Below are positions 26,946 to 29,763 of a stretch of DNA of 64,000 bases, piece after piece. The notes below the pieces were generated by a model. The model was not told where the DNA came from. It worked only from the letters and a program-made list of their open reading frames with translations, and did no database searches. Origin of the DNA: the human T2T-CHM13v2.0 reference genome, Homo sapiens; assembly GCF_009914755.1 (NCBI RefSeq), contig NC_060932.1; one strand, 5' to 3'. Every line of letters begins with the position of its first letter. Position 1 is the first letter of the stretch. The position numbers and the translations under genes are program-made.

Positions 26946-27707
26946 AAGGATTTTTAAATAAAATACTTTTTTTGTTTTCTCTTACATGGTTATTTTTCAC
27001 AACTAAGTAATGTGTGAAATGGTGCAGCTAGTAAACAAAAGTACTTCCGAACATCTCAAGCAAAAACTGTCTTACTAAACTTCAGCTGCTAACTTTTCAC
27101 TGTGGCCACCTCTGTATACTACATTTACGTAAATTGATCTTCTTTCCCTTCTTCTACCTTGATTATCTTATGATGCTGGGGATTATTACTAACTTGATCC
27201 AAGATCAGGGTGTATGAGAAAAAATACTGGTACAATAAATGCAAAAAATATATCATTATTGAATAAAGGTTGCAACTATTGCTTATGAAATAAAATTACT
27301 TAGTCTTTTCTTTAATTACATATCAAATTAGTAATTTTATTTTCCAAGTTGTTGCTGCTAAAAATGTCTTAATAATATTGGTTTGGTTAAGTCTTAATTA
27401 TTTAGTTTTAATTTGGTAATAATTGTGGGTACACACAAATTACTTGCAGTATTGTTTTTAGTCTGATAATTTTGCTGCGTACTTATCTGTAACAGAATAA
27501 TGAATAGCACAATGGTAAATATTAGCAAATTTTTTAAATGCCCTATCATAGTGCATTTAAAAAATAATGACATAATTATTAATATAAATAATATGACTTC
27601 ATAATTACAACTGTCATGCTGAATATTATACAATTATTTTATTTCCGTTCGGGGATGTAATCTTGCATGAATGTTTGCCATACTGCATGTGTTTGCTTTT
27701 TATTCAG

Positions 27708-27847
27708 TCTTCTTGGATCCATTTTCCCAATGCCTCGTGTAATCTATGCTATGGCGGAGGATGGGTTGCTTTTCAAATGTCTAGCTCAAATCAATTCCAA
27801 AACGAAGACACCAATAATTGCTACTTTATCATCGGGTGCAGTGGCAG
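27708..27847 (+). CDS. SLC7A2: SLC7A2 mutually exclusive exon, CAT-2B (high-affinity) variant, 140 nt
   Basis: [47 protein letters not shown]; ttcag| acceptor, G|GTGAGA donor; E369; total CDS 1977 nt = 658 aa. Confidence 0.95.
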
Positions 27848-28093
27848 GTGAGAGAGAGTTGACTTTTCTTCAGAAACGGGGGATCTTTTTCATCAAGGAC
27901 TCTGCATTAAAAATACAAAGCTAGGTGGTTTTCTTTTTTGATTTCCAAGAAGTTCAGTCACTTTTTTGTGAGTGTTTCCTATTTTGAATTTTTTGGTTCT
28001 GCATTTTCGTGTGTCCAGTCTTTACCTGTCTATACCTGTCTAGAATAATCCTTAAAATAACTCATGTGTGGATTTTGAATTTTTCTGTTCTAG

Positions 28094-28230
28094 TCTTCTG
28101 GGCTCTATGTTTCCTTTACCCCGAATTCTGTTTGCCATGGCCCGGGATGGCTTACTGTTTAGATTTCTTGCCAGAGTGAGTAAGAGGCAGTCACCAGTTG
28201 CTGCCACGTTGACTGCAGGGGTCATTTCTG
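28094..28230 (+). CDS. SLC7A2: SLC7A2 mutually exclusive exon, CAT-2A (low-affinity) variant, 137 nt
   Basis: [46 protein letters not shown]; ttctag| acceptor, G|GTAAGC donor; R369 and one codon shorter (657 aa); paralogous to the preceding exon with the same phases. Confidence 0.95.
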
Positions 28231-29763
28231 GTAAGCTTTACAAACTTAGGTTTCTTGAGCATTAGACTGGAACATTTAATTCGCATGCATGGACTTATAA
28301 AGAGGGTCTGCATGCTGTGCATGTAAGTTAAAAAAAACAAAATCACTGATAAAAATTAGTATACAAGCATTGGGATTAACATGTGAAAATTGTGGTGGCG
28401 GTGGTATAATGAAGTTCATTCTTAATTGACCCTTTGGGATTTTTTTTTTACTGTTTTGTTATTTTAATCTTTTGGGCTCTAACAAATGTACAAAGGGTTA
28501 TAATAGCTCTTCACTAAATATTATGAATTGCTTTTCTGATGAACTAGCACACAAAATTATATTATTGATACATAAACTTCTGATTAAGGAATTCTTGCTT
28601 AATTTTTGAAATATTAATTTTAAAATAATGATTCAATTTTTTGGTCTAGGATATACGTCGAATATTGCTAAGGGACCATAGGGTAAATTAAGCTTTACCC
28701 ATTATTAATAAGAAATATTCAAGATGATTTATGCTTGGCCCTTGTGATCGCCATCCTCAGTATGGTGGGCATCCTTGCTTCCAGGGCCATCGCAGCCATC
28801 TAACAGTTAGGAACATACATATCCTCTCCAACTCCATCAGGAATCTATTTTTCCTTTCAACAGTTTTGGTACTTAAATTATGTTCAGAAAATCCAGATTG
28901 CTAGTCTTTTGGCACATCTTAATATCCATGTAAAATACCTTTGGCCAGATCCTTATCTCATGCAGAAAATTTCAGTGAGATTCTAGATCCAGACAATGGC
29001 CTTAAAGGTACTGTTACAGGAAGCAAAAGAAAGACTTTTGCAAGCTTTATACATAAAATAATGAACAATCTTGGCACTATAAATTCAAACCAAAATGACA
29101 ATTTCGTTGAGGCTCTGAATTGTTAGGAAATTAGCTTAGAAAAAGCTAGTGCTTCATTCTGTGTAAAATGGAATTTTTTTCAGGGTCAGAATGTATTTGT
29201 TTAAACACTTTCACTTTGTAAACATTTTCTTATAAATCTGGCCCTTTCTTAAACTATGTTAGAAGGTCAAGTCACTTATTTTCTCAGGCTTAGATTTCTG
29301 CCCCCCTAAAATGAAGGTTTGCCCAGATGATGTGAAGCCCATTTTATTTTTAAACAACACATGATATTAAAGGTAGTTTATAAATATTTTTTGACAAAGA
29401 GTCATACGTTTTATTTAACTCATAAAAAATTTTCTCTTTCCGGTAAAATACTTGCCAGTAATGATGCAGAATTTTTAAAAGCTTATCTTTCTCTATTCAG
29501 GAAGAATTTAATTTGGTGGCATGTTAAGATATTAAAATTAATAATTAAAAGAAGATAATTATAATAGACCACTTTTTAAAATGCTCTAAAATATTTTTGT
29601 GATTTTGTACTCCCATACCTTACTTTGCTTGTTCTTAACTTGGATCAGAGCGCTTGTGTGGACAACTTATCATTTTCTTCTCTCTTGGCTACCTTATTTG
29701 GCTCTCTGTGATTTTTAAGCATACCAAAATTGTAATAATCTGACGTATATGAGCAATGAAGAA

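What the first reader, a model, noticed from the sequence alone, without database searches (positions are those of the whole stretch)
27664..28323. RBFOX motif layout predicts a splicing switch from high-affinity CAT-2B to low-affinity CAT-2A
Seen: two TGCATG motifs in the 3' splice-site region of the 2B exon (27664-27669, 27684-27689; 19-44 nt before it). Three more TGCATG plus an overlapping GCATG lie 53-93 nt downstream of the 2A exon (28283, 28286, 28309, 28318). Five hexamers in ~660 nt is far above the ~1 per 4 kb chance rate. Known: RBFOX represses exons when bound upstream and activates them when bound downstream; CAT-2A predominates in liver/muscle, while CAT-2B is the cytokine-induced form. 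Inference: one factor silences 2B and enhances 2A at once, setting arginine transport affinity. I do not know of this being described, but cannot check the literature.
Basis: partly seen in the sequence, partly recalled or inferred. Interest (0 to 1): 0.8.

Follow-up and report, generated by a model that had tools for sequence, protein, structure and literature searches.

The report
RBFOX sites flanking SLC7A2 alternative exons
Five RBFOX-binding motifs bracket the two mutually exclusive exons of the human arginine transporter gene SLC7A2, and published mouse knockout and binding tables that no paper I could search discusses show that RBFOX2 pushes splicing toward the low-affinity CAT-2A form.

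Summary
On the + strand, TGCATG lies 44 and 24 nt before the CAT-2B exon (27708-27847). GCATG plus three TGCATG lie 53-93 nt after the CAT-2A exon (28094-28230). The 246-nt intron between them has none. This local cluster is unlikely by chance. Only these 2 of 13 annotated SLC7A2 exons have TGCATG within 150 nt.

The predicted direction holds in mouse data. Supplementary tables of Moss et al. 2023 (PMC10676425) show that pancreatic Rbfox2 deletion moves islet Slc7a2 from about 24% to about 90% CAT-2B exon (FDR 0). One strong RBFOX2 eCLIP peak (22-fold) covers the region just upstream of that exon. That paper's main text never names the gene, and six main-text searches found no description.

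Not shown: binding at the downstream cluster, any human data, and motif conservation. A1CF, acting downstream of HNF1A, is a published regulator of the same switch (PMC12714141). It is a better candidate than RBFOX for the liver pattern.

Verdict: a real, ordinary RBFOX target, a new member of a known kind. One open question is how RBFOX2 and A1CF combine on it.

The parts
27664..27669 (+). UGCAUG no. 1, 44-39 nt before the 3' splice site of the CAT-2B exon; GAAUG and GUUUG follow directly
27684..27689 (+). UGCAUG no. 2, 24-19 nt before the 3' splice site of the CAT-2B exon, where a branch point and pyrimidine tract are expected
27708..27847 (+). Exon 7 (140 nt), the CAT-2B high-affinity exon with Glu369/Asn381
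   Evidence: hub annotation
27848..28093 (+). 246-nt intron between the two alternative exons; it holds no + strand GCAUG
28094..28230 (+). Exon 8 (137 nt), the CAT-2A low-affinity, high-capacity exon with Arg369/Ser381
28283..28291 (+). GCAUGCAUG (GCAUG overlapping UGCAUG), 53-61 nt after the CAT-2A exon
28309..28314 (+). UGCAUG, 79-84 nt after the CAT-2A exon
28318..28323 (+). UGCAUG, 88-93 nt after the CAT-2A exon; its last two bases begin a GTAAGT 5' splice-site-like hexamer (28322-28327)
28422..28428 (+). UUAAUUG, a match to the A1CF-type motif WUAAUUR (motif recalled, not taken from a call), 192 nt after the CAT-2A exon. Other matches are at 27572, 27601 and 27814
   Evidence: One search reports A1CF motifs enriched about 200 nt downstream of regulated mutually exclusive exons

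Best explanation
The five UGCAUG elements are RBFOX-binding splicing elements that bias the choice between the two mutually exclusive SLC7A2 exons. RBFOX bound 44 and 24 nt before the 3' splice site of exon 7 (CAT-2B) hinders recognition of that site's branch point and pyrimidine tract. This step is inferred. RBFOX bound 53-93 nt after exon 8 (CAT-2A) helps define that exon. This step is also inferred, and binding there is not shown.

Including both exons or neither shifts the frame and creates an early stop, so productive mRNA carries exactly one of them (computed here). Cells with RBFOX therefore make mostly low-affinity, high-capacity CAT-2A, and cells without it default to CAT-2B.

In mouse, RBFOX2 dependence of the switch and RBFOX2 binding at the upstream site are shown by published data tables. 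RBFOX is not the only input. A1CF, downstream of HNF1A, is a published activator of exon 8 in beta cells. In mouse islets, loss of Hnf1a (upstream of A1cf) or of Rbfox2 each nearly abolishes exon 8 use.
For: Sequence:
- Motif positions and the clean layout, with no GCAUG between the exons.
- The local cluster is unlikely by chance: P = 0.00065, and 9 of 200,000 and 20 of 200,000 simulations.
- Only the 2 alternative exons of 13 annotated have TGCATG within 150 nt.
- Exon identities.
- Frame logic: 140 and 137 nt. Both exons give a stop at codon 427, neither gives a stop at codon 359, and one exon gives 658 or 657 aa.

Mouse data from the supplements of PMC10676425:
- Rbfox2-mutant against control islets, 3 against 3. 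Mutually exclusive event: share of first exon 0.276, 0.18, 0.268 against 0.96, 0.908, 0.832, difference -0.659, FDR 0.
- Cassette rows: exon 7 difference -0.652, exon 8 difference +0.374.
- eCLIP peak chr8:40907933-40908144, 22.2-fold, p 7.3e-25, over the region just upstream of exon 7.

Why group 1 is the control:
- (a) The text says knockdown lowers Snap25 exon 5b and raises 5a. The table gives 5a -0.285/-0.191 and 5b +0.125/+0.026.
- (b) and (c) The Papss2 15-nt exon and the Sec31a 39-nt exon have eCLIP peaks just downstream and are higher in group 1.
- (d) Hnf1a-KO mouse islets change by 0.756 with exon 8 falling. Wild-type islets must therefore be at least 76% exon 8, which matches group 1.

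The same paper reports the usual RBFOX position rule for its own data. A1cf appears in none of its 21 supplementary files, so nothing there suggests an effect through A1cf level.
Against: - Only one Slc7a2 eCLIP peak is listed. None lies downstream of exon 8, so the activator half is unsupported.
- The 70% Rbfox2 knockdown in MIN6 cells has NA for both Slc7a2 rows.
- In NZO (diabetic) against ob/ob islets the Slc7a2 rows have the opposite sign (+0.41 / -0.555), although Rbfox2 is reported lower in NZO. Other RBFOX2-dependent exons (Snap25 5a, Map3k7, Enah) keep the same sign.
- The rMATS tables do not label their groups, so the direction is inferred.
- There are no human data and no sequence from another vertebrate, so motif conservation is untested.
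- Of the 5 top HNF1A-dependent splicing genes, 4 also change in Rbfox2-mutant islets. RBFOX2 itself is differentially spliced in the HNF1A/A1CF knockout tables. An indirect or hierarchical route is therefore not excluded.
- In a single-sequence fold, the motifs are mostly paired: unpaired probability 0.04-0.33 against a regional mean of 0.41.
- The held supplements of two other RBFOX2 studies do not list SLC7A2.
Confidence: 0.72

Rival explanations
1. The switch is set by A1CF (with HNF1A upstream), and the RBFOX2 effect seen in mouse islets is indirect or hierarchical. For example, RBFOX2 loss might weaken the A1CF programme. Alternatively, A1CF might act through RBFOX2 isoforms, with the UGCAUG sites contributing little by themselves.
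For: - A1CF knockout lowers exon 8, and A1CF re-expression restores it. HNF1A knockout cuts the exon 8/7 ratio by 90% in stem-cell islets (passages).
- A1CF motifs are enriched about 200 nt downstream of regulated mutually exclusive exons. A recalled A1CF-type motif lies 192 nt after exon 8.
- 4 of the 5 top HNF1A-dependent genes also change in Rbfox2-mutant islets.
- RBFOX2 has 11 rows in the Cell Metabolism differential-splicing file.
- The MIN6 knockdown shows NA for Slc7a2.
Against: - A 22-fold RBFOX2 eCLIP peak sits directly on the upstream motif region of exon 7 in mouse.
- A1cf occurs in none of the 21 supplementary files of the Rbfox2 study, and Hnf1a occurs only in the T2D tables.
- The shared exons Papss2 and Sec31a also carry their own RBFOX2 peaks.
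- The motif layout is unlikely by chance.
Confidence: 0.15
2. The motif cluster in the human sequence is a chance or lineage-specific feature with no role. The mouse effect would then depend on mouse-specific sites.
For: - No sequence from another species could be compared, and no human binding or knockdown data were found.
- The window overall is not enriched for TGCATG.
Against: - Local clustering: P = 0.00065 and 9 of 200,000 simulations.
- The sites sit only beside the two alternative exons of 13 annotated.
- Mouse RBFOX2 binds the equivalent place just upstream of the same 140-nt exon.
Confidence: 0.05
3. The GCAUGC-containing elements act mainly as RNA structure, or bind another factor, rather than binding RBFOX. 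Examples are a small hairpin between 28309-28314 and 28320-28325, or pairing of 28286-28291 with 28063-28068 just upstream of exon 8.
For: In the predicted ensemble these pairings have probabilities of 0.64-0.76.
Against: - This is a single-sequence thermodynamic prediction with no covariation test and no shuffle control.
- It does not explain the RBFOX2 dependence or the eCLIP peak.
Confidence: 0.05

Closest known systems
SNAP25 exons 5a/5b, an RBFOX-regulated mutually exclusive pair
   Same: Both are tandem-duplicated exon pairs (both are on the list). In SNAP25, RBFOX2 binds GCAUG-containing sites downstream of the second exon and favours that exon, and loss of RBFOX2 shifts use to the first exon (sections read). 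The direction is the same as for Slc7a2 in the same tables.
   Different: For Slc7a2 the only listed peak is upstream of the first exon, which points to repression rather than activation. The shift in islets is much larger (0.66 against 0.03-0.29). The gene is not mentioned in the paper's text.
A1CF/HNF1A control of SLC7A2 exons 7 and 8 (Cell Metab 2025, PMC12714141)
   Same: It concerns the same two exons and the same direction: the factor favours exon 8 (CAT-2A). The functional readout is arginine-induced insulin secretion (passages).
   Different: It involves a different RNA-binding protein and motif. That paper does not consider the UGCAUG sites, and it names RBFOX2 only in its discussion and reference list.
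Repression by UGCAUG close to a branch point, as described for calcitonin/CGRP exon 4
   Same: Both have RBFOX sites within about 45 nt upstream of a 3' splice site, where binding would compete with branch-point and pyrimidine-tract recognition.
   Different: The mechanism is inferred here from position only. No branch point was mapped and no assembly assay exists for SLC7A2.
FGFR2 IIIb/IIIc exon choice by RBFOX2
   Same: One RBFOX factor biases a mutually exclusive pair through intronic UGCAUG sites.
   Different: In FGFR2 the sites lie between the two exons. Here they lie outside the pair, and the intron between the exons has none.

Membership tests
Direct RBFOX splicing target | (U)GCAUG within a few hundred nt of the regulated exon on the transcribed strand | tested here: met
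   Five UGCAUG and one extra GCAUG lie within 93 nt of the two exons.
Direct RBFOX splicing target | Exon use changes when RBFOX is removed, in the direction set by motif position (upstream represses, downstream activates) | tested here: met
   Mouse only, from published tables. Exon 7 rises and exon 8 falls in Rbfox2-mutant islets. The direction was inferred from four calibrators. The MIN6 knockdown gives NA. No human data.
Direct RBFOX splicing target | In vivo RBFOX binding (CLIP) at the motif sites | tested here: inconclusive
   Met for the region upstream of exon 7 in mouse MIN6 cells (22-fold peak). No peak is listed downstream of exon 8.
Direct RBFOX splicing target | Motifs conserved across vertebrates | not testable with these tools
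   No vertebrate genome collection is on hand. The only indirect evidence is mouse binding at the equivalent place.
Direct RBFOX splicing target | Regulation is lost when the motifs are mutated | not tested
   This needs a minigene or genome edit.
A1CF-dependent exon | Exon use changes on A1CF loss and is restored by re-expression | tested here: met
   Published for human EndoC-betaH3 cells and stem-cell islets. In mouse the evidence is from Hnf1a mutants (passages; supplement values).
A1CF-dependent exon | A1CF binding motif near the exon | tested here: inconclusive
   WUAAUUR matches lie at -136 and -107 of exon 7, inside exon 7, and at +192 of exon 8. The motif is recalled and AT-rich, and no chance estimate was made.
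Frame-enforced mutually exclusive exon pair | Including both exons or neither destroys the reading frame | tested here: met
   The exons are 140 and 137 nt. Both give a stop at codon 427 and neither gives a stop at codon 359. Decay of those mRNAs is inferred.

The most novel reading that the evidence does not exclude
RBFOX2 and A1CF form a two-key control over SLC7A2 exon 8 and over a shared set of beta-cell exons (Sec31a, Papss2, Myo6). Both are needed, and neither suffices alone.

Under this reading, the reported fall of RBFOX2 and of HNF1A/A1CF activity in type 2 diabetes would converge on loss of CAT-2A. Part of the insulin-secretion defect of Rbfox2-mutant mice would then be a defect in arginine uptake.

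The same RBFOX sites would set CAT-2A use in muscle, heart and neurons, where A1CF is not thought to be present (recalled).
Probability: 0.3. Interest if true: 0.55.

Novelty: new member of a known kind. Interest (0 to 1): 0.35.

Why it matters
The two SLC7A2 exons decide whether a cell takes up arginine with high affinity (CAT-2B) or with low affinity and high capacity (CAT-2A). The Cell Metabolism 2025 paper shows that exon 8 use matters for arginine-induced insulin secretion.

Recognising RBFOX2 as a second strong input to the same switch has three consequences:
- It links two separately published diabetes-related splicing programmes.
- It gives a candidate mechanism for CAT-2A use in tissues without A1CF.
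- It points to defined intronic sites that could be tested or targeted with splice-switching oligonucleotides.

It does not change what is known about how RBFOX proteins work.

Tried and rejected
**Literature.** Ten full-text searches were run.
- SLC7A2 with RBFOX: 17 papers, none on this splicing event.
- SLC7A2 with UGCAUG: 0 papers.
- SLC7A2 with Fox-2: 0 papers.
- SLC7A2 with A2BP1: 0 papers.
- SLC7A2 with Esrp: 10 papers, none relevant by title or abstract.
- SLC7A2 with eCLIP: 49 papers, 15 listed, none relevant; the term also matches 'Eclipse'.
- CAT-2A/CAT2A with RBFOX: only the Cell Metabolism paper.
- SLC7A2 with 'mutually exclusive': 43 papers. I opened four of these. The SKIV2L paper and the c-MAF preprint do not concern this splicing event. 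The tandem-duplication and islet sQTL papers only list the gene.
- The other two searches were SLC7A2 with A1CF (3 papers) and one to locate the Rbfox1/2 muscle double-knockout study.

**Papers not held.** I cannot say whether they list SLC7A2:
- Yeo 2009.
- Zhang 2008.
- Weyn-Vanhentenryck 2014.
- Juan-Mateu 2017.
- The journal version of the Rbfox1/2 muscle double-knockout paper. Its bioRxiv version is held, but its supplements are closed.

**Supplements without the gene.** The held supplements of two other RBFOX2 studies have 0 occurrences of the gene: embryonic heart and a human cell line.

**Other dead ends.**
- Orthologous vertebrate sequence could not be obtained with any tool, so conservation was not tested.
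- RNA folding of 27560-28460 gave only weak single-sequence predictions, which I do not build on.
- I considered Map3k7 exon 12 as a direction calibrator. I dropped it because my recollection of its RBFOX2 dependence is uncertain.
- Enah exon 11a (+0.378) agrees with the inferred direction, but only on recalled knowledge.
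Full report
**1. The observation**

The window is part of human SLC7A2, according to the hub annotation. I read bases 27500-28500 and searched for the motifs.

On the + strand, which is the transcribed strand:
- TGCATG starts at 27664 and 27684. These lie 44 and 24 nt before exon 27708-27847.
- GCATG starts at 28283 and overlaps TGCATG at 28286.
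- Two further TGCATG start at 28309 and 28318. The downstream cluster spans 53 to 93 nt after exon 28094-28230.

Every coordinate in the finding is right. The 246-nt intron between the two exons holds no + strand GCATG.

The first exon encodes [46 protein letters not shown]. The second encodes [45 protein letters not shown]. There are 1055 coding bases before the pair. This places Glu369/Asn381 in the first exon and Arg369/Ser381 in the second.

A 2026 review states that Arg369 and Ser381 make CAT-2A low-affinity, and that the Glu-Asn pair marks the high-affinity carriers (passages). In the numbering of the Cell Metabolism paper they are exons 7 and 8.

**2. Is it more than chance?**

The window as a whole is not rich in TGCATG. 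It has 35 on both strands against 42.9 expected from shuffles. There are 19 on the + strand, about one per 3.4 kb.

- Placing 19 sites uniformly gave 5 or more in some 660-nt stretch with P = 0.00065 over 20,000 trials. It gave 3 within 40 nt with P = 0.0009.
- A first-order Markov model trained on the stretch itself reached 5 in 9 of 200,000 simulations for 660 nt, and in 20 of 200,000 for 901 nt.
- These tests are post hoc, but the placement adds to them. Of the 13 annotated SLC7A2 exons in the window, only these two have TGCATG within 150 nt. The sites are upstream of the first exon only and downstream of the second only.

**3. Anatomy**

The exons are 140 and 137 nt long. A transcript with one of them reads through to 658 or 657 residues. 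With both exons the first stop is at codon 427, and with neither it is at codon 359. Productive mRNA must therefore carry exactly one exon. That the other products are degraded is inferred.

Both exons have ordinary splice sites. The two upstream UGCAUG sit where the branch point and pyrimidine tract of exon 7 should be, and GAAUG and GUUUG lie next to them.

A single-sequence fold of 27560-28460 predicts most of the motifs to be paired. Unpaired probability is 0.04-0.33 against a regional mean of 0.41. I give this little weight, because there is no covariation test.

**4. Experimental evidence found in print**

Main-text searches found no description of RBFOX acting on SLC7A2. The supplementary tables of Moss et al. 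2023, Nat Commun (PMC10676425), do contain it. I read the outline, sections 6, 8, 10, 11 and 29, and parts of its supplements. The gene is not in that paper's main text: the paper is absent from the list, and 'arginine' occurs 0 times in it.

*Splicing in Rbfox2-mutant islets.* The tables compare Pdx1-Cre Rbfox2-mutant islets with littermate controls, 3 against 3.
- The mutually exclusive event chr8:40908055-40908195 (140 nt) / 40908397-40908534 (137 nt) has first-exon shares of 0.276, 0.18, 0.268 against 0.96, 0.908, 0.832. The difference is -0.659 at FDR 0.
- The cassette rows give exon 7 as 0.079, 0.036, 0.157 against 0.802, 0.834, 0.593.
- They give exon 8 as 0.262, 0.48, 0.516 against 0.01, 0.047, 0.078.

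*Binding.* The RBFOX2 eCLIP table from MIN6 cells lists one Slc7a2 peak, chr8:40907933-40908144. It is 22.2-fold enriched with p 7.3e-25. It runs from 122 nt upstream of exon 7 to 89 nt inside it.

**5. Which group is the control?**

The tables do not say, so I calibrated in four ways.

- (a) The text states that knockdown lowers Snap25 exon 5b and raises 5a. The table has 5a at -0.285 and -0.191, and 5b at +0.125 and +0.026. The difference is therefore control minus mutant.
- (b) The Papss2 15-nt exon has an eCLIP peak starting 55 nt downstream. It is 0.194-0.243 in group 1 against 0.002-0.074 in group 2.
- (c) The Sec31a 39-nt exon has a peak about 230 nt downstream. It is 0.77-0.80 in group 1 against 0.24-0.61 in group 2. 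Both (b) and (c) fit activation from downstream sites if group 1 has RBFOX2.
- (d) In the Cell Metabolism data, Hnf1a-knockout mouse islets change by 0.756 with exon 8 falling. Wild-type mouse islets must therefore be at least 76% exon 8. That matches group 1.

So loss of RBFOX2 moves mouse islets from about 24% to about 90% CAT-2B exon.

**6. Results that do not fit, or that limit the claim**

- No eCLIP peak is listed downstream of exon 8. Only the repressor half of the layout has binding support.
- The 70% knockdown in MIN6 cells has NA for Slc7a2.
- In the NZO against ob/ob comparison the Slc7a2 rows have the opposite sign (+0.41, -0.555), although Rbfox2 is reported lower in NZO. Snap25 5a, Map3k7 and Enah keep the same sign as in the mutant. 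I have no explanation. A strain difference is possible.
- Two other RBFOX2 studies have no SLC7A2 row in their held supplements.
- All positive data are from mouse. I could not obtain any orthologous sequence, so I cannot say that the mouse sites are the same hexamers.

**7. A second, published regulator**

The Cell Metabolism 2025 paper (PMC12714141; passages and supplements seen) reports the following:
- A1CF, a direct HNF1A target, promotes exon 8 over exon 7 in human beta cells and stem-cell islets, and re-expression rescues the effect. In mouse, the evidence is from Hnf1a mutants.
- Blocking exon 8 lowers arginine-induced insulin secretion.

A1CF motifs are enriched about 200 nt downstream of regulated mutually exclusive exons. 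A match to the A1CF-type motif as I recall it lies 192 nt after exon 8. That paper names RBFOX2 only in its discussion and reference list.

This judgement rests partly on recalled expression patterns.

*Overlap of the two programmes.* Of the five top HNF1A-dependent splicing genes shared by human and mouse (SEC31A, SYNRG, PAPSS2, MYO6, SLC7A2), four also change in Rbfox2-mutant islets. RBFOX2 has 11 rows in the Cell Metabolism differential-splicing file. A1cf occurs in none of the 21 Moss supplementary files. The two programmes overlap, and their hierarchy is open.

**8. Verdict**

The motif layout is real, and the predicted switch is borne out in mouse islets, with binding at the upstream site.

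*Mechanism.* Repression of exon 7 by occlusion of its branch-point region is inferred from position. Activation of exon 8 from the downstream trio is also inferred and lacks binding evidence. Frame enforcement of exclusivity is computed.

*Novelty.* This is a typical RBFOX target of a well-known kind. It is present in public tables but not discussed in any main text I could search. Older target lists that I could not open may include it.

*What is worth following up.* Two diabetes-linked splicing regulators converge on one transporter switch. The same sites may also set CAT-2A use in tissues that lack A1CF.

Noticed in passing
window 28392-28405: A GGU-rich run, GTGGTGGCGGTGGT, lies 162-175 nt after the CAT-2A exon. 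It resembles the GGU-rich sites bound by ESRP proteins (motif recalled). ESRP could be a third epithelial input favouring exon 8. The SLC7A2 with Esrp search found nothing relevant.
   Followed up: partly
window 28322-28327: GTAAGT, a near-consensus 5' splice-site hexamer, overlaps the end of the last UGCAUG, 92 nt after the annotated 5' splice site of the CAT-2A exon. It could be a decoy or an extra U1 site. This was not examined further.
   Followed up: no
window 27572, 27601, 27814, 28422: Four matches to the A1CF-type motif WUAAUUR (recalled). Two lie 136 and 107 nt before the CAT-2B exon, one lies inside it, and one lies 192 nt after the CAT-2A exon. The last fits the roughly 200-nt downstream enrichment reported for A1CF. 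The region is AT-rich and no chance estimate was made.
   Followed up: partly
published mouse tables (PMC10676425, PMC12714141), not the window: Four of the five top HNF1A/A1CF-dependent splicing genes (Sec31a, Papss2, Myo6, Slc7a2) also change in Rbfox2-mutant islets. RBFOX2 itself has 11 rows in the HNF1A/A1CF knockout splicing file. This overlap of the two programmes is not discussed in the parts of either paper that I read.
   Followed up: partly
published mouse tables (PMC10676425 supplements): In NZO against ob/ob islets the Slc7a2 exon rows change strongly (+0.41 / -0.555), but with the opposite sign to the Rbfox2 mutant. Other RBFOX2-dependent exons keep the same sign. This is unexplained. 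A strain-specific cis variant is one possibility.
   Followed up: no
window, whole: The pentamer GCATG is somewhat over-represented across the whole 64 kb on both strands. There are 151 against 120.3 expected, and 0 of 100 shuffles reach 151. The hexamer TGCATG is not over-represented.
   Followed up: no
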